Virus record (IMG/VR): IMGVR_UViG_3300050014_000073
Coordinates: 1 to 64,000 of that record
Reading direction: 5' to 3' (one strand)
Origin: a virus
DNA length: 64,000 nucleotides
The translations under genes and the position numbers were made by a program. The notes beneath the pieces were generated by a model. That model made no database searches. It was not told where the DNA came from and worked only from the letters and a program-made list of their open reading frames with translations. Positions 51,610 through 63,771 of this stretch are shown here, one piece after another; position 1 is the stretch's first letter, and every line of letters begins with the position of its first letter.

Positions 51610-53193
51610 ATGGCACTCACTGACAGAATCGTGAAGTCCTTTAGTGGGCCAGTCTATTCTGGGACCGGTCAGGAGTTTACTCCGATTCCGGGAAGCGAGT
51701 ACAGTGCTCTTCCTAAGACTCCTCCGTTTTCGGAAATTGGCGTTTCTGGAGTTCTCAGGACTCGCGGCGTCGGGTATCTATACGAGGAATGGTTAGCTTC
51801 TCTATCCACTTCTCGAGGCAAGATGGTCTACCGTGAGATGCGGGACAACGACGCGGTTATTGGGTCGATGTTCTTCGCTCTCGAAATGATTCTCCGCCGC
51901 GCTCAGTGGCATATGGAACCCGGACCCGGAAAGAAAGGCGACGACTACGGACAGTTCATTGATGAGTGCTTCAACGATATGAGCCATACGTTCGAGGACT
52001 TCATTGCTGAGTGCGTCAACATGTTTGTCTTCGGGTATTCACTGTTCGAGACAGTCTACAAACGCCGCCAGGGACCCAAAGGAAAGAAAGCTTCCAAGTT
52101 CGACGATGGGTTGATCGGCTGGAGGAAGTTTGCCCCTCGCGCTCAAGAGAGCATCCTCTACTGGATTTGGGATGACGAAGGAGGACTGCAAGGTGCCGTT
52201 CAGCTTGCTGCTCCCGATTACCATACCGTCCCGATCCCAATCTCGAGATTGCTTCTCTTCCGCACAACTTCTGTCAAGAACAACCCTGAAGGGCGGTCTC
52301 TTCTCCGTAACTGCTTCCGAAGCTGGTTCTTCAAACGCCGTATTGAAGAGGTTGAGGGGATTGGTATTGAGCGCGACCTTTGCGGCATTCCAGTATTGTA
52401 CGCAAGCGCTGAAGCTCTCGCTGCAATGGGAGGACAAGCTGCTGCTGAGAAGTTGGTTAGTAACATCCGAGTTGATGACCAGGCCGGAATCATCCTCCCG
52501 TTGGCGTTTGACGAGAAGGGGAATCAGCTTGTTAAGATTGAACTGATGCGGACTGCCGGTCAGAAGCAGATGAATCCGTCGGAGACAATCGGACGTTATA
52601 ACTCCGACATGTTGAATACTATGTTGGCAGGGTTCGTTCAGTTCGGACAGACGTCAGTTGGATCTCGGGCGCTTCACATGAGCGCCACACAGATCTTCAG
52701 TCTGGCGATCACGGCATTCATGGACTCAATTGCAGCAATCATCAACCGTATTGCGATTCCCCGGCTGATGGCAATGAACTCGATGGACCTCTCGTCCGCG
52801 CCAAAGCTGGTTCCTGGTGAAATCGGGGTTCGTGATCTCGAAGAACTGAGTCAGTATGTTTATCAGTTGAGTCAGTCAGGTCTGACGTTCTTCGACAAGG
52901 AAACTACCAACTACCTTCGGAAGACTGCACGCCTGCCTGAAATGCCTGAGGACGACGAAGCCGGACCGGAAGAGAATCCGAATCAGGCTCCTCCTCCCCA
53001 ACTGACTCCTGATCAGCAAGCTCAAGCACAAGTACAAGGTGAACCTCCAGATCCCAACGCACCTCCAGCTCCGGCAGCTCCCAGTGCTGCGTCTCCGAAA
53101 ACACCTCCGGCGCTGAAGCCGAAGAAGCCGATTGCGGCAACTCCGCCTTCCAGTCAAGCTTCTGCTGGTGAAAAACTTAGGCAAACCGCGTGA
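51610..53193 (+). CDS. portal protein
   Basis: YREMRDND..FGYSLFE..NPEGRSLLR..GIERDLCG; position before MuF. Confidence 0.88.
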   Translation: MALTDRIVKSFSGPVYSGTGQEFTPIPGSEYSALPKTPPFSEIGVSGVLRTRGVGYLYEEWLASLSTSRGKMVYREMRDNDAVIGSMFFALEMILRRAQWHMEPGPGKKGDDYGQFIDECFNDMSHTFEDFIAECVNMFVFGYSLFETVYKRRQGPKGKKASKFDDGLIGWRKFAPRAQESILYWIWDDEGGLQGAVQLAAPDYHTVPIPISRLLLFRTTSVKNNPEGRSLLRNCFRSWFFKRRIEEVEGIGIERDLCGIPVLYASAEALAAMGGQAAAEKLVSNIRVDDQAGIILPLAFDEKGNQLVKIELMRTAGQKQMNPSETIGRYNSDMLNTMLAGFVQFGQTSVGSRALHMSATQIFSLAITAFMDSIAAIINRIAIPRLMAMNSMDLSSAPKLVPGEIGVRDLEELSQYVYQLSQSGLTFFDKETTNYLRKTARLPEMPEDDEAGPEENPNQAPPPQLTPDQQAQAQVQGEPPDPNAPPAPAAPSAASPKTPPALKPKKPIAATPPSSQASAGEKLRQTA

Positions 53194-54199: not shown

Positions 54200-55201
54200 A
54201 TGCCTCTCTCTTTCATCCGAAAAGCCAAAGCCACCGACGCAGTACTGCAAGCTGCGTCGCGTATGGAAGCTTCGCTGGCGCAGGCTTTTCTGGACGCCGT
54301 CGACGCGATGCAGGACGACGTTGCTCTTACCAAGCTCTCTGCTGCTATCGAAGCTGGTGACATGAACCAGGCTCTGGCGATTATGGCAGTGGATCAGGGG
54401 TTCGTACAGGCGCTTCAGGGGAAGGGACTTGAAGCCGGAGTGAAATCATTCCGAGATGCCGTTCAAGCAACGTTTGCAGCGGGAGCTCAAGCAGCTATTA
54501 CTCAACTCCCGAAATCCGTATCATTGGATCTGGCATTCAACTTGATGAGTCCCGAAGCGATCAATCATCTTGAGACATACTCGTTCAGCCTCATCCAGCA
54601 GATCTCCGAACAGACTCGTGAAGCAATTCGACAGACGATCTTGCGGGCATTCAAAGAGGGTGGTCATCCTTACGAACAAGCGCGCAGCATTCGGAACGTC
54701 ATTGGACTGACGGCGCGACAAGAGCAAGCTGTAGCGAACTACGAAGCTTCGTTGTCTGGGAACTCTGCTACACGAGACGCCCTGACTCGTGCTCTCCGAG
54801 ACGGAAGGTTCGACTCAACGGTTGCCCGTTCAATCACCAACCAGACTCCGCTGTCTCAAGCCCAGGTTGACAAGATGGTTGACCGATACCGAAGTCGGTT
54901 CATTGACTATCGGGCAAAGACCATTGCGAGAACAGAGTCCGTGCGAGCTTCAAATCTAGGACAACGAGAAGTCTGGCGTCAGGCAAAGCAACAGGGATTG
55001 ATCGAAGAGGATCAGAAGCGGGTCTGGATCACTTCAGGCGACGACAAAACTTGCGATGACTGCGCCGGTCTTGACGGAACTGAAGTCGGTCTTGATGAAG
55101 AGTTTGAGGATGGAGTCATGGACCCACCTGACCCCCATCCGGATTGCCGGTGTACTACTGCTCTATCAATTAAGAAACGGGACTCATTACGAGTTGCATA
55201 A
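54200..55201 (+). CDS. head morphogenesis protein (MuF / SPP1 gp7 family)
   Basis: RAKTIARTE, KRVWIT..D..TCDDC, PHPDCRC. Confidence 0.92.
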   Translation: MPLSFIRKAKATDAVLQAASRMEASLAQAFLDAVDAMQDDVALTKLSAAIEAGDMNQALAIMAVDQGFVQALQGKGLEAGVKSFRDAVQATFAAGAQAAITQLPKSVSLDLAFNLMSPEAINHLETYSFSLIQQISEQTREAIRQTILRAFKEGGHPYEQARSIRNVIGLTARQEQAVANYEASLSGNSATRDALTRALRDGRFDSTVARSITNQTPLSQAQVDKMVDRYRSRFIDYRAKTIARTESVRASNLGQREVWRQAKQQGLIEEDQKRVWITSGDDKTCDDCAGLDGTEVGLDEEFEDGVMDPPDPHPDCRCTTALSIKKRDSLRVA

Positions 55202-56311: not shown

Positions 56312-56749
56312 ATGCCCCTCGCTCCACTGAATGAACCTTACGCTTCCGATCCTACTCTACTCTTGGCTCTCTGTATCTGGAGAGAAGCAAGAGGGGAGTC
56401 GCATGATGCCAAGGTCGGAGTTGCGTCCGTAGTCATGAACCGTTGCGTTATGGCCCCCGCTCAAGGCTTCAAGAGGTCCGTAACTGGGAATATTCTCCAT
56501 CCGTGGGCCTTCAGTTCGTTTATGGAAGGTGACCCGAATGCAGTGAAGTATCCTGCGAGTGGGGATTCCTCCTGGACTGATTCTCAATTGGTTGCTCAAA
56601 ACGAAATGCGGAATCATCTCAGTACTGATCCAACGGACGGAGCCATCTTCTATCACAGTAACGCGGAAGCTCTGCCTCCTCCTAAAGATTGGGGAAACGT
56701 GACGTTCACTGGAACCATCGATCATCTCCATTTCTTCAAGATTGCCTAA
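56312..56749 (+). CDS. SleB-like cell wall hydrolase
   Basis: IWREARGE..VASVVMNR..AFSSF..DPTDGAIFYH..HLHFF. Confidence 0.9.
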   Translation: MPLAPLNEPYASDPTLLLALCIWREARGESHDAKVGVASVVMNRCVMAPAQGFKRSVTGNILHPWAFSSFMEGDPNAVKYPASGDSSWTDSQLVAQNEMRNHLSTDPTDGAIFYHSNAEALPPPKDWGNVTFTGTIDHLHFFKIA

Positions 56750-57242
56750 CATGGGAACGTTGGCAGAGTACCTGGTTGAGAAGTACAGTCCGGATCAGTC
56801 TCGCGCTGCGAATGGTGAGTTTGGTGAAGGTAGCATTGAGTTCAAGCCTTCTGCCCGGATGCAACGAGCCCTGGAATCGCGTGTTCCATGCGGAGTTGAA
56901 AAACAGCGTATCGCAGATGAGCAGGAACGGATAGTGAGCAAGGCCGTTGGTATCCCTCGTACGAAAGATAACTCTGCGTTCGACATGCGCAATGATGAAG
57001 TTGGTCTTGAACTTAAGTGTATGCAAGACAGTCGAAATGGCAAAATTACGATGTCAAAGACTGCCCTAGGTCGTAAGCTTGCTGAATCACAAGCTGAGGG
57101 GTTGAAGACTTACACCATCGTTGCAGATAAGCGTTCAGGAGGTGGCGGGACGCGTTACTACATCAAGTCCGGTCTCGGTTCATTTCACGTAAGCAATATG
57201 ACTCCCACAACGCTGTCTGAAATACGGAGCATGGTTCGATGA
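56742..57242 (+). CDS. PD-(D/E)xK-like nuclease with head-protein-like N-terminus
   Basis: VEK-YSPDQSRAANGEF leader; E..FD..LELK. Confidence 0.55.
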   Translation: MPNMGTLAEYLVEKYSPDQSRAANGEFGEGSIEFKPSARMQRALESRVPCGVEKQRIADEQERIVSKAVGIPRTKDNSAFDMRNDEVGLELKCMQDSRNGKITMSKTALGRKLAESQAEGLKTYTIVADKRSGGGGTRYYIKSGLGSFHVSNMTPTTLSEIRSMVR

Positions 57243-60200
57243 GCATCGAACTCACAAACGAAACTGGTTTGCTTGGGCAGGTGGCTAGCAATGCAGGCTA
57301 CTCTGATCTCATCGAATCTGCGAAGGGCATCCCGGTTCTTAAGACTTTCTTTCAGCAGGGTGCTACTGAAGATGTTCCTCCTGTTGTTGAAGCTCTCAAG
57401 AAGCTGGACGGTCCGAAAGACGTTCTCGAAACGGCATTCTCTCTGGCGAAGCTGATGGAAGGACAGGAGCTGGTCATCATAACGGATGGAACCTCAGACG
57501 ACGAAGTAGAAAAGGGTGGTCCTGGTTCCGGACCTCATGGACAAGGCGGGAACAAGGTTGTTGCTTGGATTCAGCATCCAGCTTTGGGTGTTCGTTCAAT
57601 AGGGAGATCTGGGAATTCATCAGCAGTACGGATTCCTACTCATGCGGAAGTTCTCGATCAAGCGCGAAAAGATACAGGGACGAATGTTAAGTACGACGCG
57701 CTAAATCGCGGCTATGCAACTGTTCGCGGAGGCTTTGCGAACGTTGTGACTCATACTCAGGATTCGTCTAGGGCTCTCGTTGATCGCCCTATGCTGGATC
57801 ACTCCGCCGTTGAAGAGCATCTGAAGAATACTTACGGAGCGAAGGACGCAATCTGGTTGACTGGGAAAGTCGCTGAGGCAGAGAACGAGGAGATTAACAA
57901 GATGAAGCTCTCGGTCATTCACTTCGGTTCCGATGCAGACCTCCCAGCTTCGGTTCGCAATGCTATTCCTTCGTTCGCTCTGTCAGTCTTCCGCAATGCC
58001 TTCAATGAAGCGACAGGCAGCGGCAAGTCCGAGATGAACGCCTATATCAAGGGATACCGGGCTCTTGAAGACGCGGGCTATGTTTATGATGACGCAGGTA
58101 AATGGTCAGTGAAGAAGGACGGTCCTACTCTTGGAACGGTTCACATCAATCGACCTCTTGGTAGAGTACTCCCGAAAGATCAGAATGATCCTTTTGATGA
58201 GGCAATTGATGACGTTCTGCATCCGAAGAAGAGAATCAAAAAGATTGACCTCTCCCTTCCGTTGTTTGAGCATCTCATGATCGAGTGCGGGGATTTCACC
58301 CTGGGTGGTGACGTCGTGATGAAAGAAGATCAGATCACGGTGGACGTTCCTCTGTTCATTCGGCTTCTCGAACTTGCCCGCGAAGACATCAAGACCGATC
58401 CTCCAATCCACGAGGTCACCGAAAAGATCACTGAGCTGATGGGCGACAAGACCTGCCTTGACATGGACGACTACGAAAAGATCGTATCCGTATTGAAGCG
58501 GAAGAAGAAAGAAAAGGACGATCCAGGAACCGAGGACGTTGACATCCCTGACGACATGTTCGTCGAGAACCCTCCTGCTGCTGGTCAGTCTACTACTTTG
58601 AAGAAACGTATCAGCGGCAACTCTGATATCGCACTCAACACTAAGGGTCAGAAACTGGCCGACGCACTAGGGAAGCAGATTGCTCTTCGGGGCGGTCTCG
58701 ATATTTTGTATTCCAGTCCTCTTCCCCGAGCTGTCGAAACAGCCGACGCAATTATCGAAAATGCCAACACGAGTATCAAACGGGCTTCCCCGCTTCCAGC
58801 TCTTTGCCCTTGGCACCTAGGTGAGTATGAAGGACGGATGCCGGATGCTGTTCATAACCTAATCGACGGCTACATCGCCCATCCTGACGAAGCTCCTCCT
58901 GGAAAGTGTGCCGATGGCTCTCCATCCGAGTCATTCAACTCAGCTAAGAACCGGCAGCTTTCTTGCTTGAAGAAGCTCTATGAAGACTGGGCTGAACAGG
59001 ACCCCACTCTCAAGATTGGTGTCGTGATGCACTCCCGGGGGATGGAACTCTTACAGTCCTGGGTTGACGAAGATTGCCCCGAAGACTTCGACCTGAAAGA
59101 CTCTGATCTGGTTCATCCCGATGATCCCGAACACGCTACTATGCTTCGCTGGCACAAAGACAATATCAAGGACGTGGATTTGGACGATGATGCTCCGCTG
59201 ACTCCTGGAGTATATCTCATTCTTCACAGCTTGACTGATGACGATACTGATGAGGGAAATCCTGAACTGACGAAGAGGCAGGAGAGAGAGGAGGCGATCC
59301 ATTCCGTAGTTAAGAAATACCTCCCGCCTCTTGAGGTCCATCAAGCTGCAAAACGCGCGTACGACGTGGGAATGGCAGTCATTGATATCACAGCTCCTTT
59401 GGCTGAAGGTGAAGGGCTTCCTGTTTCCGAAATTCAGAAGATTGCTGATCACTTCGCTGAGACAACCTCTATTACCGAGCCGCAGACAACTCGTGATGCA
59501 TGGGGCGGGAAATACGCAGCTAAGTGGGCAGCACGCGTCTTCAAGAAAGCTGCTAAGGACTTTCCAGAATGGCAAGGCATCGATTTGGACGGGACGTTAT
59601 GCGAACCAACGGAACCTTATGATTCCACGAAAATCGGAAAGCCTATTGACGCGATGGTTGCACATGTCAAGTCTCTCCTCGCTGAAGGGAAGACGATCAA
59701 AATCTTCACCGCTCGTGTTGCTGACGATCCTGACGGTAAAGTCAAAGCTGCTATCGAAGCGTGGTGCAAAAGTCACCTCGGTCAAGTCCTACCTGTTACG
59801 AACGAGAAAGATCCCGGAATGATGGATCTCATCGATGACCGGAGCCACCGACCAGAAGAGGTTACCAAAGCTGGTGACGGAGTCATGGTTGCTCTATGGC
59901 CTGACCCTGATACCGCCAAACAGATTGCTGTAAAGGACGGTGAGTCTTCTGACGATCTTCATATCACGTTGGCGTACTTCGGTAAGAGTGTTGACGCGGA
60001 TAAACTCCCGTTCTTGGAAGCAGCTCTCAAACACTTCGCTGAAACTCACTCTCCAATCAAGCTTCAGCTAGGTGGCTTGGGACGGTTCCCGGCCACTCCT
60101 TCGTCAGACGGTCAGGACGTTGCCTACCTAGGAGTTCACTCTCCCGAAATCCAGAAGTTCCGTCAAGACCTGGTTGACAGCGTAAAGGGAATGGGAGTTG

Positions 60201-60826
60201 ATCCGAAAGCCAACTTCGGTTACAATCCGCACATGACGTTGAAATTCGTTGCTCCTCATGCGCCGCATCTGCTTCCTACTCCTGACTCGAAGAACTTGAA
60301 GTTCACTGAAATCGTGCTCAGTGTCGGAACGGAAAAGAAAGTCTTTCCTCTGACCGGTCTGAAAAGCGCAGTCACGAAGAATACTGATGAGTTCGAAATC
60401 TCTGGCGACATCATCAAGGTTGACAAAGACCGGCAAATGGTTTGGGGATGGTTTTCAATTGTTAGTGTTAATGGAAAGCCATTCGCTGATTCCCAGGGAG
60501 ACGTAATCACGCCCGAAACAATCGAGGAGAGCGCATACGACTTCGTTCTCAATGCTCGTAAGGGTGGTGAGATGCATGAAGCAAAGAAGGACGGTGATGT
60601 TGAAGGTGTAGGACGCCTTATCGAATCGGTAGTCTTCACGGATGAGAAACAGAAGGTAATGCAAGACAGCCTCCGTGAACAGGGGATTGATGCAGTACTC
60701 GCGCTGGGATGTGTGGCATGGTGGGGCGGAATGCACATAGACGATTCTGACACCTGGGATAAGGTAAAGACTGGGAAGCTTCGTGCCTGGTCAATAGGCG
60801 GGCGTGGAAAAAGAGCTTCTCTGTAA
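57239..60826 (+). CDS. multidomain polyprotein: ChaB-like, permuted histidine phosphatase, HAD phosphatase, 2H phosphoesterase, XkdF-like prohead protease
   Basis: DLPASVR..FRNAFN; YSSPLPRAVET; GIDLDGTL..IFTAR..IDD; LHITL..PHMTL; VWGW..DSQGD..EMH..WSIGG. Confidence 0.85.
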   Translation: MSIELTNETGLLGQVASNAGYSDLIESAKGIPVLKTFFQQGATEDVPPVVEALKKLDGPKDVLETAFSLAKLMEGQELVIITDGTSDDEVEKGGPGSGPHGQGGNKVVAWIQHPALGVRSIGRSGNSSAVRIPTHAEVLDQARKDTGTNVKYDALNRGYATVRGGFANVVTHTQDSSRALVDRPMLDHSAVEEHLKNTYGAKDAIWLTGKVAEAENEEINKMKLSVIHFGSDADLPASVRNAIPSFALSVFRNAFNEATGSGKSEMNAYIKGYRALEDAGYVYDDAGKWSVKKDGPTLGTVHINRPLGRVLPKDQNDPFDEAIDDVLHPKKRIKKIDLSLPLFEHLMIECGDFTLGGDVVMKEDQITVDVPLFIRLLELAREDIKTDPPIHEVTEKITELMGDKTCLDMDDYEKIVSVLKRKKKEKDDPGTEDVDIPDDMFVENPPAAGQSTTLKKRISGNSDIALNTKGQKLADALGKQIALRGGLDILYSSPLPRAVETADAIIENANTSIKRASPLPALCPWHLGEYEGRMPDAVHNLIDGYIAHPDEAPPGKCADGSPSESFNSAKNRQLSCLKKLYEDWAEQDPTLKIGVVMHSRGMELLQSWVDEDCPEDFDLKDSDLVHPDDPEHATMLRWHKDNIKDVDLDDDAPLTPGVYLILHSLTDDDTDEGNPELTKRQEREEAIHSVVKKYLPPLEVHQAAKRAYDVGMAVIDITAPLAEGEGLPVSEIQKIADHFAETTSITEPQTTRDAWGGKYAAKWAARVFKKAAKDFPEWQGIDLDGTLCEPTEPYDSTKIGKPIDAMVAHVKSLLAEGKTIKIFTARVADDPDGKVKAAIEAWCKSHLGQVLPVTNEKDPGMMDLIDDRSHRPEEVTKAGDGVMVALWPDPDTAKQIAVKDGESSDDLHITLAYFGKSVDADKLPFLEAALKHFAETHSPIKLQLGGLGRFPATPSSDGQDVAYLGVHSPEIQKFRQDLVDSVKGMGVDPKANFGYNPHMTLKFVAPHAPHLLPTPDSKNLKFTEIVLSVGTEKKVFPLTGLKSAVTKNTDEFEISGDIIKVDKDRQMVWGWFSIVSVNGKPFADSQGDVITPETIEESAYDFVLNARKGGEMHEAKKDGDVEGVGRLIESVVFTDEKQKVMQDSLREQGIDAVLALGCVAWWGGMHIDDSDTWDKVKTGKLRAWSIGGRGKRASL

Positions 60827-60899
60827 GAAATTTCTGGGATTCGCCCACCAGCCTGCGCCTCACGGGGACGGACAAGGATGGGCCACCCTTAAGATAGAC

Positions 60900-61274
60900 A
60901 TGACTGATTTATCCATCGTACTGACGGCAGCTGGCATGGCGTCAGCCGCGACCGCTTGGGTGTCAATCCAAGTTACCCGCTCCGCTGCCGCTGCACGTAA
61001 AGAAGCATGCCGTGTAGCTAAAGAATTACAGCACTTCAAAGAGCACTTGCCGGTTTACCTGAATGGCACGTATCGCCGCACGCCAGAATGTGAACTCTTG
61101 CACAAGTCTGTTGAGAAACAATTTTCTTCTCTGCCTGCATTACTGGCTGGGTCGGAAGAGTTCCGCCGCCTTATAAGCGTTTCTGTATCAGACGGCATCG
61201 TTTCTGTATCAGACGGCATCTGGGCTTCAAAGGCTAGGCGGCATTCGCATGGGGTGTCAGATGAAACTAAGTAG
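60900..61274 (+). CDS. membrane-anchored hypothetical protein
   Basis: N-terminal TM; 21-bp tandem duplication at 61178-61219. Confidence 0.5.
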   Translation: MTDLSIVLTAAGMASAATAWVSIQVTRSAAAARKEACRVAKELQHFKEHLPVYLNGTYRRTPECELLHKSVEKQFSSLPALLAGSEEFRRLISVSVSDGIVSVSDGIWASKARRHSHGVSDETK

Positions 61275-61830
61275 AGTTTGGATCACCATGCTGTGCGTCT
61301 TGCTTTTGTGGACAGTGGTGTCCTTTGCAGAATCAAAAGTCGAAGTTGACCCCCGCGCCAAGTTGGCTGCTTCCGAATCCGCCCGAGCACAGGCGTTGCA
61401 AGAGAAAGCATCTCTGTCCGCCGCCATAGTGCGGTTAAACAAAAGCCAATCCGTTACAAGGACAGCTTCCCAGGATGCTGGACTTGCCCAAGACACAGCA
61501 GAGAGCACTGCCCTTATTATTCAAAAAGCGGCAGCCGATGCTAGTTCGGCAGCAGTTCTCGCTGAGATTGAGGCAAACCGATTCAATAGCAATGCAATGG
61601 CGCTGATTGGTGTGCAGGCCCTTGTCTTATTGGGAATATTAGGAGGCTTTATAAACAGCGCATACTCATCTTCACGTGATCACAAGTGGGCTATGGATGC
61701 CACTGCCCGGACGGAAAAGCAAGTCCAGGAAACGCACTCTGTTATGAGGGCAGTGGAGAAGAATACAAACTCCATGGTTGAAAAAGATGCAAGCGTCGTC
61801 TTACAGGGAAGGATTTACTGCGGGGTCTAA
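61261..61830 (+). CDS. membrane/coiled-coil protein
   Basis: Signal/TM, coiled coil, second TM; probable frameshift near 61781. Confidence 0.6.
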   Translation: MKLSRVWITMLCVLLLWTVVSFAESKVEVDPRAKLAASESARAQALQEKASLSAAIVRLNKSQSVTRTASQDAGLAQDTAESTALIIQKAAADASSAAVLAEIEANRFNSNAMALIGVQALVLLGILGGFINSAYSSSRDHKWAMDATARTEKQVQETHSVMRAVEKNTNSMVEKDASVVLQGRIYCGV

Positions 61831-62148: not shown

Positions 62149-63771
62149 ATGCCTCAGTCACTCAGCGAACTTCGGGTCAACGAGATTTCATTAGTTGACG
62201 CCCCGGCCTGCCGCCAGGTAGTCGATGGGAAGAAGATCCCGAGAGCAACTGTTGCGATCTGGAAACGAGACTCTTCCAACTTTGATGATGTTCTCAAAGC
62301 CGCCAAGGGTGTCAAGTTCCTGATCGGTTCCAAGGATGACGTCTCTAAGGTCCAGTCTGTCGTATTCGACGCCGCTCAGTGGAACGAGACTTCTGCTAAG
62401 AAGTGGCTGACGGACAACATATTCAAAGCAGAGACGATGGACAAGACGGAGAAAACTCTGCGGTTCCGTCAGGAGGACGCAGGACAGTTCACTCGGTTCA
62501 CGGTTGTGGACTCAGGTCAGTTCCAGAAAGCTGAGGCTGAGGAGTGGGACGACAAGGACGAGACTTGCAAGGCAGTCGATGGGAAGACGTATGACGGGAC
62601 GTCTTATCCAAAGAGCGACTTTGCCTACACTCCAACGGACACACCATCCGATTGGAAACTACGACTTACGAAAACTCCAGGTGGCAGGCCCGACGCTGGT
62701 ATTGTTGGCGCGGCGGTAGCTGCTCTGGGAAAAGGATTCCGGGGGAAGAAAGTCATTATTCCGGCCGACGCGCTCCCCGGCGTGAAAGCCAAGGTCAGTG
62801 CCGCATGGCACAAAGCAAACCCGGACCGTAAGGAAGAAGAGCTTCCTCCGATCCTCAAATCCGAACAAGGAGAAAATAACACCATGACTCTAGCCGAATT
62901 GGAGACGAAGGTCACCAAGTTGGATGAGAACGTCGTGTCTCTGACTAGCGAGCGCGATGTTCTGAAAGCCGAGAACGCCTTGGTTCTCAAGATGTCGAAG
63001 AAGGAGCGCAAGCTCTACGCTTCGATGGACGAGGCCAAGCGCAAAGACTACATGACTGCCGACGAACAGAAGCGCAAAGCGCTCCTCGACGGTGCGCAGT
63101 CCCAGAAACGCCAGAAGAAGCTCTGTGACACAATGGATGAAGCCACCAAGGGCGCATTCGAGAAAGCAGGGCCGAAGGAACGCGCTACGATGCTGGCTGA
63201 CGCCGACGCAAAGTGCAAGGCAGCGAAGGCCGGCAAGAAAAAGTCGGGTTCCAAGTCAGTTCCCAAGCCGGGCGATGCTGATTTCGATCCTGACGGTGAC
63301 GATGACAACGACAGTGGTGATGACGAGGCAACCAAGACGCTGACCAAGAAGCTTGCCGCTGCCGAAGACAAGATCGCCAAGAACGATGCTCAGTTGGAAG
63401 TGATGACCAAGCGCGACCGGCTGGTCAGCTTCACCAAGCGGGCTGAATCCGAACTGCCTAACACTCCCGGAACGCCGGAAGAGAAGGGTGACATTCTCAT
63501 GAAGCTGGCAGACAGCTTCGGGGAGAAGTCCGAGACTTTCACGAAGATGCTCTCGCAGTTGAAGAAAGCTGACGAGGCTTTCAAGAGCAGCTTCTCTGAA
63601 ATCGGAAAGACCGGTGGCAACATCCCGGCAGCGGCAGCTTGGATGGCCAAAGTCGCGGAGATTCAGAAGCGCGACAACATCAGTGAGGGGCAGGCTTCGT
63701 TGAAAGCCTATGAAGAGGCTCCCGATCTGGTCATGGACTACGACCGCCAGCGTCCGGCGATGCGGGTCTAA
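62149..63771 (+). CDS. capsid scaffolding protein
   Basis: EISLVDAPA..AIWKRD N-terminus, long charged coiled coil; follows the protease. Confidence 0.75.
   Translation: MPQSLSELRVNEISLVDAPACRQVVDGKKIPRATVAIWKRDSSNFDDVLKAAKGVKFLIGSKDDVSKVQSVVFDAAQWNETSAKKWLTDNIFKAETMDKTEKTLRFRQEDAGQFTRFTVVDSGQFQKAEAEEWDDKDETCKAVDGKTYDGTSYPKSDFAYTPTDTPSDWKLRLTKTPGGRPDAGIVGAAVAALGKGFRGKKVIIPADALPGVKAKVSAAWHKANPDRKEEELPPILKSEQGENNTMTLAELETKVTKLDENVVSLTSERDVLKAENALVLKMSKKERKLYASMDEAKRKDYMTADEQKRKALLDGAQSQKRQKKLCDTMDEATKGAFEKAGPKERATMLADADAKCKAAKAGKKKSGSKSVPKPGDADFDPDGDDDNDSGDDEATKTLTKKLAAAEDKIAKNDAQLEVMTKRDRLVSFTKRAESELPNTPGTPEEKGDILMKLADSFGEKSETFTKMLSQLKKADEAFKSSFSEIGKTGGNIPAAAAWMAKVAEIQKRDNISEGQASLKAYEEAPDLVMDYDRQRPAMRV

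What the first reader, a model, noticed from the sequence alone, without database searches (positions are those of the whole stretch)
57239..60826. Prohead-protease polyprotein loaded with nucleotide-processing enzymes and Lys cleavage motifs
ChaB-like, histidine phosphatase, HAD and 2H phosphoesterase domains precede an XkdF-like protease. Domain borders repeatedly show hydrophobic-x-K (VEK, INK, VKK, VMK, LTK, VTK twice, IIK), also seen in portal, scaffold and ORF 56742. Known: 2H enzymes include Acb1, which degrades cyclic-nucleotide immune signals, and 2H plus HAD activities heal 2',3'-cyclic phosphate RNA ends. Inference: self-cleavage packages an anti-defence or RNA-repair kit for ejection; it might also act on ribozyme-generated ends.
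Basis: partly seen in the sequence, partly recalled or inferred. Interest (0 to 1): 0.72.

Follow-up and report, generated by a model that had tools for sequence, protein, structure and literature searches.

The report
Phage cargo polyprotein with built-in protease
An uncultured phage encodes one long head-module protein that strings several phosphate-removing enzymes in front of a capsid-maturation protease, with conserved lysine sites between the parts that look like cutting points, so it is probably cut into separate enzymes that travel in the capsid.

Summary
ORF 57239-60826 (1195 aa) lies between the portal/MuF genes and the scaffold/capsid genes of an 83-kb uncultured virus. From N- to C-terminus it carries:
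- an N-terminal domain
- a weak ChaB-like domain
- a divergent histidine phosphatase
- a PNKP-like HAD phosphatase
- a LigT-like 2H phosphoesterase
- a C-terminal XkdF protease

Hydrophobic-x-Lys is not more frequent than chance (26 seen, 25.3 expected). At the module borders, however, it is almost invariant across 27 relatives while its neighbours vary freely. P1 Lys is 25 of 25 at K293, K456 and K877. The sites sit mostly in predicted disordered linkers. Relatives insert, delete or split modules exactly at them. The same signal ends short conserved N-terminal peptides of portal, MuF and small proteins, and it is frequent in the scaffold.

New here: the residue after K293 starts a copy, in the same register, of the capsid protein's N-terminus (1 of 20,000 shuffles reach the score).

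Best reading: a polyvalent cargo polyprotein processed by its own prohead protease. This kind was predicted in print in 2017, so it is a new variant, not a new kind. Cleavage, packaging and substrates are all untested. The Acb1 and RNA-repair readings get little specific support.

The parts
57239..57514 (+). N-terminal domain, residues 1-92, ending VEK(92) before GGPGSG
   Evidence: The AF2 model is folded at 1-83, with 10-residue block means of pLDDT 78-95. The same domain heads stand-alone proteases and 2H proteins in relatives L008, L009, L010 and L011. No Pfam or PHROG hit.
57515..57901 (+). Residues 93-221: GGPGSG motif and a stretch present only in this phage among the aligned rows, ending INK(221)
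   Evidence: All other rows of A1 are gapped here. Most of it has pLDDT under 50. Several relatives start their ORF at the residue aligned to M222.
57902..58117 (+). ChaB-like domain, residues 222-293, ending VKK(293)
   Evidence: Pfam ChaB E 6.6e-4, 20.7 bits, below the cut-off of 27. ChaB hits 4 of 27 relatives at E up to 0.001. Block pLDDT is 84-92 over 231-290.
58118..58165 (+). Copy of the capsid protein's N-terminus, residues 294-309
   Evidence: MCP residues 2-17 score 44 (BLOSUM62, ungapped) at residue 294. The next best score is 17. The shuffle mean is 16.8 with sd 4.0, and 1 of 20,000 shuffles reach 44. The motif occurs only twice in six frames of the 83-kb record. It is conserved in relatives directly after the Lys site.
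58166..58606 (+). Disordered linker with VMK(362), a helical module at about 363-424, and a KDDPGT linker ending LKK(456)
   Evidence: pLDDT is under 50 at 293-371 and 423-458, with helices at 370-424. K362 is K in 16 of 19 rows and K456 in 25 of 25. The module is absent in P0007, P0010, P0011, P0015 and P0019.
58607..59275 (+). Divergent histidine-phosphatase domain, residues 457-679, ending LTK(679)
   Evidence: Pfam His_Phos_1 1e-18, but only profile positions 13-156 are matched. The best stretches of the listed PDB relatives all start at chain residue 12 or later. H663 is at least 90% conserved and follows a predicted extra strand at 657-662.
59276..59548 (+). Helical domain of unknown family ('YLPP...AWGG'), residues 680-770, ending FKK(770)
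   Evidence: Block pLDDT is 83-94 over 691-770. No Pfam or PHROG family. By local blastp it is found in 18 of the 150 best XkdF-domain representatives.
59549..59869 (+). HAD phosphatase module, residues 771-877, ending VTK(877)
   Evidence: phrog_1238 9.5e-9 and phrog_415 (polynucleotide kinase) 5.7e-4. HAD_PNKP E 0.015, below threshold. The DLDGT motif is kept in most rows of A1. The whole module is missing in P0008, P0009, P0012, P0013 and P0015.
59870..60379 (+). LigT-like 2H phosphoesterase, residues 878-1047, ending VTK(1047)
   Evidence: Pfam 2_5_RNA_ligase2 2.2e-13. H908, T910 and H998 are invariant in A1. Foldseek top hits are E. coli LigT 5ldm (7.8e-8) and drCPDase 5h7e.
60380..60826 (+). 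XkdF-type prohead protease domain, residues 1048-1195, plus the stop codon
   Evidence: Pfam Peptidase_S78_2 1.5e-16. D1084, H1113 and S1185 are invariant in A4, which has 25 rows reaching down to 21% identity. The best fold match of 48,161 chains is T4 gp21 5jbl (Z 6.6, rmsd 3.5, 101 aligned), followed by VZV protease (Z 4.6).
51610..53193 (+). Portal protein, with a conserved 9-residue N-terminal peptide ending phi-x-K
   Evidence: Portal_Mu 2e-31. K9 is conserved in 8 of 8 aligned rows. By my reading of the printout, 9 of 9 N-termini end phi-x-K and are followed by a gapped, variable stretch.
54200..55201 (+). MuF-like minor head protein, with a conserved N-terminal peptide ending phi-x-K
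   Evidence: Phage_Mu_F 3.4e-16 and phrog_3517 4.3e-72. By my reading, 12 of 12 printed N-termini carry phi-x-K within the first 8 residues.
56742..57242 (+). Small protein with a leader ending VEK(14) before YSPDQ, then a PD-(D/E)xK-like module. Its stop overlaps the polyprotein's ATG by 4 bases.
   Evidence: Coordinates. In L008, L009, L010 and L011 the same module is the C-terminus of protease-less cargo polyproteins. No Pfam or PHROG hit. The nuclease label is my reading of the motif only.
62149..63771 (+). Scaffold-like protein (540 aa), the likely main substrate of the protease
   Evidence: It lies before the decoration-like and capsid genes. It has 9 conserved phi-x-K sites against 0 phi-x-R, 2 phi-x-E and 2 phi-x-D. 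Alignment A3. phrog_19463, function unknown. 'Scaffold' is inferred from position and from the charged, helical C-terminal half.

Best explanation
This is a virion-cargo ('polyvalent') polyprotein of a Mu-type head module. Modules are strung together and end in the phage's own XkdF-type prohead serine protease.

Proposed mechanism:
- The protein enters the procapsid with the scaffold.
- The protease (candidate triad D1084, H1113, S1185) cuts after Lys in V/I/L-x-K sites in the flexible linkers.
- It also cuts the scaffold and short N-terminal leaders of portal, MuF and small head proteins.
- This frees separate pieces: a ChaB-like domain, a fragment whose new N-terminus copies the capsid protein's N-terminus, a divergent histidine phosphatase, a small helical domain, a PNKP-like HAD phosphatase and a LigT-like 2',3'-cyclic phosphodiesterase.
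- I infer that the freed enzymes stay in the head and enter the next cell with the DNA. There they would remove 2',3'-cyclic, 2'- or 3'-phosphates from RNA ends or from nucleotide-based defence signals.

Shown here: the architecture, the context, the conserved sites, intact 2H and HAD motifs, and module shuffling at the sites.

Inferred: cleavage, packaging, ejection and substrates.
For: Context: portal, MuF, cell-wall hydrolase, this ORF, scaffold-like gene and capsid gene lie in one direction.

Protease:
- Pfam XkdF 61 bits.
- Invariant Asp, His and Ser across 25 rows.
- The top two fold matches are capsid-assembly proteases, T4 gp21 (Z 6.6) and VZV protease (Z 4.6).
- 35 viral models match at E up to 0.001, mostly named XkdF.

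Sites:
- P1 Lys is 100% at K293, K456, K770 and K877, with a hydrophobic P3, inside otherwise variable linkers.
- Of the seven conserved junction sites (K293, K362, K456, K679, K770, K877, K1047), five lie in segments with pLDDT under 50. K679 lies in a block with mean pLDDT 50. K770 ends a helix.
- Of all 26 phi-x-K, 10 lie in the 22% of residues with pLDDT under 50 (my count).
- Insertions (Fic, ADP-ribosyltransferase-like and others), deletions (HAD, helical module) and ORF splits in relatives fall at these sites.

Trans action: L009, L010, L011 and L014 have a stand-alone protease gene plus protease-less cargo polyproteins that keep the same sites.

Wider use of the signal:
- Portal and MuF N-terminal peptides.
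- A shared leader on two small ORFs of this phage and on ORFs in L007, L009, L010, L011 and L014.
- Nine conserved sites in the scaffold.

Enzymes:
- Both HxT motifs of the 2H domain are invariant, and the fold is LigT-like.
- The HAD DxDxT motif is kept.

Precedent:
- T4 gp21 cuts after L/I-x-E, and short N-terminal targeting peptides load ejected proteins such as IPI and Alt (PMC9026906, passages).
- SPN3US gp245 cuts after A-x-E (PMC10052503, passages).
- Polyvalent proteins with a C-terminal assemblin-like peptidase, and 2H domains predicted to degrade defence nucleotides (PMC5512222, section 20 and passages).
Against: - No experiment exists. The virus is known only from a metagenome.
- The tripeptide is no more frequent than chance, so the case rests on conservation and position.
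- K770 lies at the end of a predicted helix, and K1060 lies inside the protease domain. Not every conserved site need be cut.
- The fold match to gp21 is modest (Z under 8), Foldseek found no PDB match at E up to 0.001, and one paper calls XkdF unrelated to the assemblin-type peptidases (PMC7824862, passage).
- The histidine phosphatase lacks the N-terminal RHG stretch.
- The HAD assignment rests on PHROGs and a motif, not on a Pfam hit over threshold.
- No RNA ligase, RtcB or clear kinase is in the record, which weakens an RNA-repair role.
- Processed pieces might be expelled from the head like scaffold fragments rather than kept.
Confidence: 0.6

Rival explanations
1. Assembly-only polyprotein. 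The N-terminal modules serve as bulky propeptides or core components during head assembly. They are cut up and expelled before DNA packaging, like scaffold fragments. Any enzyme activity matters only in the producing cell, late in infection.
For: In T4 most core fragments and propeptides leave the head (PMC9026906, passage). The scaffold here carries the same conserved sites. No call shows retention in the virion.
Against: Relatives swap in typical effector domains (Fic, ADP-ribosyltransferase, PARP-like) at the same positions. That fits delivered effectors better than assembly parts. Catalytic motifs of the 2H and HAD modules are conserved. 2H is also fused to portal and to an HK97-type protease in other phage proteins (P0031 and P0032 Pfam lists).
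Confidence: 0.15
2. There is no cleavage between modules. The protein works as one multi-domain enzyme-protease. The conserved V/I/L-x-K marks something else, such as a shared strand start, a binding motif or a modification site.
For: K770 and K1060 sit in predicted secondary structure. Cleavage is untested. Phage N4 virion RNA polymerase is packaged unprocessed despite a peptidase domain (PMC5512222, passage).
Against: The same tripeptide precedes at least seven unrelated folds and ends short N-terminal peptides of portal, MuF and small proteins. Its neighbours are unconstrained. Module gain, loss and gene fission happen exactly there. The pattern of hydrophobic P3 and charged P1 parallels the documented gp21 rule (PMC9026906, passage).
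Confidence: 0.12
3. RNA end-healing kit for repair. The 2H domain opens 2',3'-cyclic phosphates and the HAD (PNKP-like) domain removes the phosphate. This restores tRNAs or mRNAs cut by host anticodon nucleases or toxins, with ligation left to a host enzyme.
For: The 2H fold is LigT/CPDase-like. The HAD resembles the PNKP phosphatase family weakly. The two lie side by side in most relatives.
Against: No RNA ligase, RtcB or clear 5'-kinase is in the 83-kb record, which is estimated 80% complete. The authors of PMC5512222 (section 20) state that 2H domains of polyvalent proteins were never seen with RNA ligases. The HAD module is dispensable in 5 of 19 rows of A1.
Confidence: 0.2
4. Acb1-like anti-CBASS or anti-cOA nuclease cargo. 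The 2H domain cleaves cyclic oligonucleotide immune signals on entry.
For: Pfam Acb1 hits 2 of 27 relatives at E 1e-4. Acb1 7t27 appears among the fold matches. A role against nucleotide signals is predicted in PMC5512222 (section 20).
Against: The query has no Pfam Acb1 hit at E up to 1. Acb1 ranks 47th (TMt 0.52), well behind LigT-type enzymes.
Confidence: 0.15

Closest known systems
Polyvalent proteins of phages with a C-terminal assemblin-like peptidase (Iyer, Burroughs, Anand, de Souza, Aravind 2017, PMC5512222)
   Same: Many unrelated domains sit in one polypeptide. The gene is encoded among head genes. The peptidase is at the C-terminus. The 2H domain is among the modules. Architecture varies between orthologues. 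Release by the embedded peptidase and delivery with the DNA are predicted.
   Different: The main text of that paper does not contain 'XkdF' or 'phosphatase'. It gives no cleavage motif and no capsid-protein mimic. I could not see its figures or supplementary files, and these may show similar architectures.
T4 internal proteins IPI-III and Alt, loaded by N-terminal capsid-targeting sequences and cut by gp21 after L/I-x-E (PMC9026906, passages)
   Same: There are short N-terminal leaders, a three-residue rule with hydrophobic P3 and charged P1, a scaffold cut many times, and ejected anti-defence cargo. The protease domain here has gp21 as its best fold match.
   Different: P1 is Lys, not Glu. 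The cargo is chained into one polyprotein fused to the protease rather than made as separate small proteins. The protease family is XkdF.
SPN3US and phiKZ ejection proteins processed by gp245 and gp175 (PMC10052503, passages; PMC5694885, search listing only)
   Same: A prohead protease removes propeptides from many head and ejection proteins at an x-x-E type motif (A-x-E).
   Different: Those are jumbo myoviruses with separate genes, and the motif and protease family differ.
Arthrobacter phage Laroyevirus gp18, for example Edmundo QGJ88092.1
   Same: It is a 2H plus XkdF fusion placed after portal and MuF and before the capsid gene. Residues 864-1192 of the query are matched at 25-27% identity.
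   Different: It has only two modules (about 370 aa). It is annotated variously as RNA ligase, aldolase or capsid maturation protease. I found no published processing data.
LigT/ThpR 2',3'-cyclic phosphodiesterases and the T4 Pnkp phosphatase (end-healing enzymes)
   Same: The 2H fold with two HxT motifs is present. The HAD module has DxDxT and a weak PNKP-family signal.
   Different: The record has no kinase or ligase partner. The modules are embedded in a head protein. The reaction products of these enzymes are recalled knowledge, not tested here.
Acb1 anti-CBASS 2H nuclease
   Same: The same 2H superfamily.
   Different: It is a distant match only: rank 47, TMt 0.52. The query has no Pfam Acb1 hit.

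Membership tests
Peptidase_S78_2 / XkdF prohead protease | Pfam model over the gathering score | tested here: met
   61 bits against a cut-off of 24, residues 1058-1192 covering profile positions 5-124 of 126.
Peptidase_S78_2 / XkdF prohead protease | Conserved candidate catalytic His and Ser (with an acidic residue) | tested here: met
   D1084, H1113 and S1185 are invariant in 25 rows that include relatives at 21-31% identity. Which residues are catalytic in this family is not established in anything I read.
Peptidase_S78_2 / XkdF prohead protease | Gene position of a prohead protease (after portal/MuF, before scaffold and capsid) | tested here: met
   In L009, L010, L011 and L014 it is a stand-alone gene at that place.
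Peptidase_S78_2 / XkdF prohead protease | Proteolytic activity and the cleavage rule | not testable with these tools
   Only inferred from the conserved phi-x-K sites.
Assemblin-like (herpesvirus / T4 gp21) peptidase fold | Structural similarity to solved capsid-assembly proteases | tested here: inconclusive
   VIA-align wide: 5jbl gp21 Z 6.6, rmsd 3.5, 101 aligned; 1vzv Z 4.6; 8j3s Z 3.4. These are ranks 1, 2 and 18 of 48,161 chains. Foldseek PDB gave nothing at E up to 0.001. Z under 8 may reflect only a common arrangement.
Polyvalent proteins (Iyer et al. 2017) | Several (2 to 15) biochemically unrelated domains in one polypeptide | tested here: met
   At least four Pfam or PHROG families plus four unassigned folded modules.
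Polyvalent proteins (Iyer et al. 2017) | Encoded with the virion packaging or head genes of a phage | tested here: met
Polyvalent proteins (Iyer et al. 2017) | Mosaic, fast-changing architecture among orthologues, including effector domains | tested here: met
   Fic in 1, ADPrib_exo_Tox in 1, PARP in 2 and Acb1 in 2 of 27. Splits and fusions are seen in L003-L016.
Polyvalent proteins (Iyer et al. 2017) | Transfer into the host cell with the DNA | not testable with these tools
   No data.
2H phosphoesterase, LigT/ThpR-like | Two HxT/S motifs | tested here: met
   H908-x-T910 and H998-x-T. H908, T910 and H998 are invariant in A1.
2H phosphoesterase, LigT/ThpR-like | Pfam model over threshold, and the fold | tested here: met
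   2_5_RNA_ligase2 50.9 bits against 27. Foldseek: 5ldm 7.8e-8 with TMt 0.65, and 5h7e with TMt 0.70.
Acb1 (PF23474) | Pfam model match | tested here: not met
   No hit for the query at E up to 1. 2 of 27 relatives hit at E 1e-4.
Histidine phosphatase superfamily, branch 1 | Pfam model over threshold | tested here: met
   68.2 bits against 21.7. 24 of 27 relatives hit.
Histidine phosphatase superfamily, branch 1 | N-terminal RHG motif with the nucleophilic His (the motif and its place are recalled) | tested here: not met
   Profile positions 1-12 are unmatched. The best stretches of the listed PDB relatives all start at chain residue 12 or later. There is no RHG before residue 457, and that stretch is a variable linker.
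Histidine phosphatase superfamily, branch 1 | A substitute catalytic His supplied by circular permutation (L-H663-S after an extra C-terminal strand) | tested here: inconclusive
   H663 is at least 90% conserved, and a strand at 657-662 is predicted with high pLDDT. I could not inspect coordinates or run a permuted search.
HAD phosphatase, PNKP-like | DxDxT nucleophile motif, with a Thr/Ser motif and an acidic motif | tested here: met
   DLDGT, FTAR and DD by direct reading. The DxD is kept in most rows of A1 and degenerate in P0018 and P0019.
HAD phosphatase, PNKP-like | Curated family model over threshold | tested here: not met
   HAD_PNKP scores 15.9 bits against 27.6. The only support is phrog_1238 (9.5e-9) and phrog_415 (5.7e-4).
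ChaB | Pfam model over threshold | tested here: not met
   20.7 bits against 27. 4 of 27 relatives hit at E up to 0.001. The resemblance stands, but membership is not shown.

The most novel reading that the evidence does not exclude
The V/I/L-x-K sites act as a modular address-and-cut code for a whole phage lineage. Any domain placed between two such sites, or behind a short leader ending in one, would be loaded into the procapsid and released by the XkdF protease.

Cleavage after K293 would unmask an N-terminus that copies the capsid protein's own mature N-terminus in exact register. The cargo would then dock wherever that capsid arm docks (scaffold, neighbouring subunits or the portal vertex). 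That would be cargo loading by mimicry of the capsid protein.

Because the cut is after Lys, standard tryptic virion proteomics would not have seen it.
Probability: 0.3. Interest if true: 0.8.

Novelty: new variant of a known kind. Interest (0 to 1): 0.6.

Why it matters
If the reading holds, it has four consequences.
- It gives a simple, testable rule (hydrophobic-x-Lys) for which proteins a large group of uncultured phages cut during head assembly. At least 2668 cluster representatives match this XkdF domain. Of the best 150, 123 carry 60 or more residues in front of it.
- It shows how such phages swap anti-host enzymes in and out of one gene.
- It points to a possible new way of getting cargo into a capsid.
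- It warns that cuts after Lys are invisible in tryptic virion proteomics.

The rule could also be used to load foreign proteins into phage heads, as was done with the T4 targeting sequence.

Tried and rejected
- Simple enrichment of phi-x-K is rejected: 26 seen against 25.3 expected.
- Counting phi-x-K near the start of the protease domain in 150 representatives gave 137 of 138. I give this no weight. A 37-residue window often holds the tripeptide by chance, and one site lies inside the domain.
- Covariation between each phage's capsid N-terminus and its polyprotein copy could not be tested, because the capsid motif is nearly invariant in the 10 records that have it.
- Complex prediction of the scaffold C-terminus (residues 400-540, A3) with polyprotein residues 286-335 (A2) gave the verdict 'no answer', score 0.00. 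It says nothing either way.
- The ESM Atlas search of residues 1-98 gave no usable hit.
- Pfam and PHROGs found nothing for residues 1-100, 294-445 or 680-775, for the 140-aa leader protein, or for ORF 56742.
- Foldseek against the PDB with the protease-domain model gave nothing at E up to 0.001.
- phmmer of the whole protein against the PDB gave only weak phosphoglycerate-mutase hits.
- The capsid protein's only PDB relative is 3bjq, and that match does not cover the N-terminus.
- The scan of 185,579 species genomes gave 23 loci. All match within query residues 840-1071, essentially the 2H region. No prophage relative was found, and so no host.
- Literature:
  - 'GGPGSG' gave 17 papers. None of the 10 listed concerns phages.
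  - 'capsid maturation protease' with '2H phosphoesterase' gave 0 papers.
  - 'prohead protease' with 'polyprotein' and 'bacteriophage' gave 5 papers. None describes this architecture apart from PMC5512222.
  - 'XkdF' with 'protease' gave 24 papers. From the 20 titles and abstracts listed, none reports cleavage sites.
- Supplementary files and figures of PMC5512222 and PMC7824862 were not seen and may list similar architectures.
- The HK97 cleavage site, which I recall as being after a Lys, was not confirmed in anything I read. It is not used.

Full report
WHAT IS THERE

The window is the first 64 kb of an 83,140-base IMG/VR virus record. The record is linear and CheckV estimates it 80% complete.

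ORF 57239-60826 (+, ATG, 1195 aa) sits in a one-directional head module. In order:
- Mu-type portal, 51610-53193 (Portal_Mu 2e-31).
- MuF-like protein, 54200-55201 (3.4e-16; phrog_3517 4.3e-72).
- Hydrolase_2 cell-wall hydrolase, 56312-56749.
- A 166-aa ORF, 56742-57242, whose stop overlaps the polyprotein's ATG.
- The polyprotein itself.
- Three short ORFs.
- A 540-aa scaffold-like protein, 62149-63771.
- Beyond the window, a small decoration-like ORF and the major capsid protein at record positions 64287-65309 (phrog_1005 3.3e-68).

An identical protein is in the public collection, and 26 relatives of 757-1397 aa share 39-62% identity.

DOMAINS

Over Pfam threshold:
- His_Phos_1, residues 454-607.
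- 2_5_RNA_ligase2 and LigT_PEase, residues 904-1009.
- Peptidase_S78_2 / XkdF, residues 1058-1192.

Weaker assignments:
- ChaB is below threshold, at 20.7 against 27 bits.
- The HAD module is supported only by PHROGs (phrog_1238 9.5e-9; phrog_415 'polynucleotide kinase' 5.7e-4), by a sub-threshold HAD_PNKP hit and by its DLDGT, FTAR and DD motifs.

An AlphaFold2 model built on 27 sequences has mean pLDDT 71. It shows folded blocks at 1-83, 225-292, 372-424, 459-671, 691-772, 773-869, 879-1042 and 1063-1195. These are separated by segments with pLDDT under 50.

With the whole model, Foldseek ranks LigT-type 2',3'-cyclic phosphodiesterases first: E. coli LigT 5ldm at 7.8e-8, and drCPDase 5h7e with TMt 0.70. 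Acb1 7t27 comes only at rank 47.

A separate model of residues 1040-1195 (pLDDT 79) has no Foldseek match in the PDB. An all-against-all structural search over 48,161 chains puts T4 prohead protease gp21 first (Z 6.6, rmsd 3.5 A, 101 residues aligned) and varicella-zoster protease second (Z 4.6). This is suggestive but not conclusive at these Z values.

D1084, H1113 and S1185 are invariant across 25 sequences reaching down to 21% identity.

THE LYSINE MOTIF

Counted naively, hydrophobic-x-Lys is at chance. There are 26 against 25.3 +/- 4.1, and 965 of 2000 shuffles reach 26.

The signal is in position and conservation. In the 27-sequence alignment:
- P1 is Lys in 25 of 25 rows at K293, K456 and K877, in 26 of 26 at K770, in 22 of 25 at K679 and in 16 of 19 at K362.
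- P3 is V/I/L/M/F in 24-25 of 25 at K293, K456, K679 and K877, in 24 of 26 at K770 and in 14 of 19 at K362.
- At K293, K362, K456 and K877 the commonest residue at P8-P4 and at P2 reaches only 12-36%.

By contrast, the conserved phi-x-R, phi-x-E, phi-x-D, phi-x-N, phi-x-S and phi-x-T sites fall at positions inside the folded blocks.

Of the seven conserved junction sites, five lie in segments with pLDDT under 50. K679 lies in a block with mean pLDDT 50, and K770 ends a helix.

Every large difference between relatives falls at these sites:
- About 100-residue inserts follow the Lys aligned to K679 in P0006, P0008, P0009 and P0012.
- A Fic-containing insert occurs in P0014.
- An ADP-ribosyltransferase-like insert lies between the 2H and protease modules in P0008.
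- The HAD module is cleanly absent in five rows.
- The helical module at 363-443 is absent in five rows.

INK(221) precedes the residue at which several relatives simply start.

RELATIVES SPLIT THE GENE

In 14 close IMG/VR loci the same gene slot, between MuF and the scaffold, holds one, two or three genes.
- L009 and L011 have a 1127- or 1186-aa cargo polyprotein without a protease, plus a 271-aa gene made of the N-terminal domain, an acidic linker and the protease.
- L010 has three genes of 653, 559 and 222 aa.
- L014 has two genes, of 1038 and 261 aa.
- L008 has two genes, of 794 and 706 aa.

The protease-less cargo proteins keep the Lys sites, so processing would have to work in trans.

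In L008-L011 the module of ORF 56742 forms the C-terminus of the cargo protein. So that small ORF is a detached module of the same system.

THE SAME SIGNAL ELSEWHERE IN THE HEAD MODULE

- Portal proteins begin with a conserved nine-residue peptide ending phi-x-K, followed by a gapped, variable stretch. This holds in 8 of 8 aligned rows by script and in 9 of 9 printed N-termini.
- MuF proteins begin with a conserved peptide ending phi-x-K in 12 of 12 printed rows.
- Two small ORFs of this phage (record 65795-66217 and 73271-73465) share a 16-residue leader ending phi-x-K directly before GGPGSG. That motif also follows K92 in the polyprotein.
- Similar leaders head unrelated proteins in L007, L009, L010, L011 and L014.
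- The scaffold has nine conserved phi-x-K sites against none for phi-x-R and two each for phi-x-E and phi-x-D.

This is the pattern known from T4. There, gp21 cuts after L/I-x-E, shreds the scaffold, and removes short N-terminal targeting peptides from proteins that are later ejected (PMC9026906, passages). It is also known from SPN3US, where the rule is A-x-E (PMC10052503, passages).

A COPY OF THE CAPSID PROTEIN'S N-TERMINUS

The capsid protein starts M-P-L-P-T-L-S-D-V-H-V-N-R-P-L-T. The polyprotein reads D-G-P-T-L-G-T-V-H-I-N-R-P-L-G from residue 294, the first residue after K293.
- Capsid residues 2-17 score 44 there, and the next best position scores 17.
- Shuffles average 16.8 (sd 4.0), and 1 of 20,000 reach 44.
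- The motif occurs only at these two places in six frames of the record.
- The capsid N-terminus is nearly invariant in all 10 records that include the gene.
- The copy follows a phi-x-K site in the same register in all 16 rows of A1 that have residues aligned there (16 of 19 rows).
- It does so in all five protease-less cargo proteins. In L009 and L011 it comes straight after an N-terminal leader instead of a ChaB domain.
- It is absent from the four stand-alone protease genes.

So it travels with the cargo, not with the protease. My inference is that cleavage exposes a capsid-like N-terminus that docks the cargo inside the shell. A complex prediction with the scaffold C-terminus gave no answer. 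That is recorded under Tried and rejected only.

ENZYMES AND LIKELY ROLE

- The 2H domain keeps both HxT motifs and looks like a LigT-type cyclic phosphodiesterase.
- The HAD module keeps its nucleophile motif and leans towards the PNKP phosphatase family.
- The histidine-phosphatase domain starts after the point where the RHG motif should be.
  - I find a predicted extra strand at 657-662 followed by a His that is at least 90% conserved.
  - I could not check the geometry, so its activity is open.
- The record has no RNA ligase, no RtcB and no clear kinase. This agrees with the published remark that 2H domains of polyvalent proteins never accompany RNA ligases (PMC5512222, section 20).

I therefore lean to erasure of phosphate-bearing RNA ends or nucleotide signals early in infection, rather than full RNA repair. 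The substrates are unknown.

HOW NEW

Polyvalent proteins, their C-terminal assemblin-like peptidases, their 2H domains and their predicted release and injection were described in 2017 (PMC5512222).

Fusions of XkdF with other domains are common.
- The domain matches 2668 cluster representatives at E up to 0.001.
- Of the best 150, 123 have 60 or more residues in front of it, 34 have 300 or more, and 15 have 600 or more.
- In 136 of the 150 the domain ends the protein.
- Viral models named ChaB or zeta-toxin carry the domain.
- Cultured Arthrobacter phages have a 2H-XkdF gene in the same slot.

I did not find the following in print: the XkdF version of the theme, a Lys-type cleavage rule, the module-exchange pattern at those sites, or the capsid N-terminus copy (searches; figures and supplements not seen).

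VERDICT

This is a new variant of a known kind and a good target for simple experiments.

Noticed in passing
window 56742-57242: A 166-aa ORF has a leader ending VEK before YSPDQ, then a module with a D...E-x-K pattern that I read as PD-(D/E)xK-like. Its stop overlaps the polyprotein's start codon. In L008, L009, L010 and L011 the same module is fused to the end of cargo polyproteins.
   Followed up: partly
beyond the window: record 65795-66217 and 73271-73465 (L002 2296-2718 and 9772-9966): Two small ORFs share a 16-residue N-terminal leader ending phi-x-K directly before GGPGSG, then diverge. Similar leaders occur in L007, L009, L010, L011 and L014. They are candidate capsid-targeting peptides.
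   Followed up: partly
window 58535-58561 (residues 433-441) and relatives: A second recurrent linker motif, K-DDPGT-[EQ]-DV, lies before the phosphatase module. It appears in most relatives, sometimes twice. Its role is unknown.
   Followed up: no
window 62149-62210: The scaffold-like protein starts with a conserved motif (E-[IV]-S-L-V-D-x-P-A). L5, L8, E12, S14, L15, D17 and A20 are invariant in 9 rows. The motif reminds me of the end of HK97-type proteases, but this is recalled and not tested.
   Followed up: no
window 56312-56749: A Hydrolase_2 (SleB-like) cell-wall hydrolase gene lies inside the head module (6.4e-11). PMC5512222 mentions PF07486 as a rare module of polyvalent proteins (passage).
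   Followed up: no
window 60804-61830: Two ORFs (156 and 193 aa) lie between the polyprotein and the scaffold. They have hydrophobic stretches that look like membrane or signal segments, and no family hits. blastp found no homologues in the 14 related loci.
   Followed up: no
beyond the window: L002 1838-2296: The gene after the capsid gene ends in a SAP domain (5.9e-7). It is conserved in position in 8 related loci.
   Followed up: no
beyond the window: L002 2719-11536: A run of ORFs between the capsid and tail genes. I saw the ORFs but ran no family search on them.
   Followed up: no
P0029, P0031, P0032: More distant proteins join the 2H domain to GGDEF (PF00990), to a portal (PF04860) and to an HK97-type protease (PF04586). 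So 2H is repeatedly tied to head proteins.
   Followed up: no
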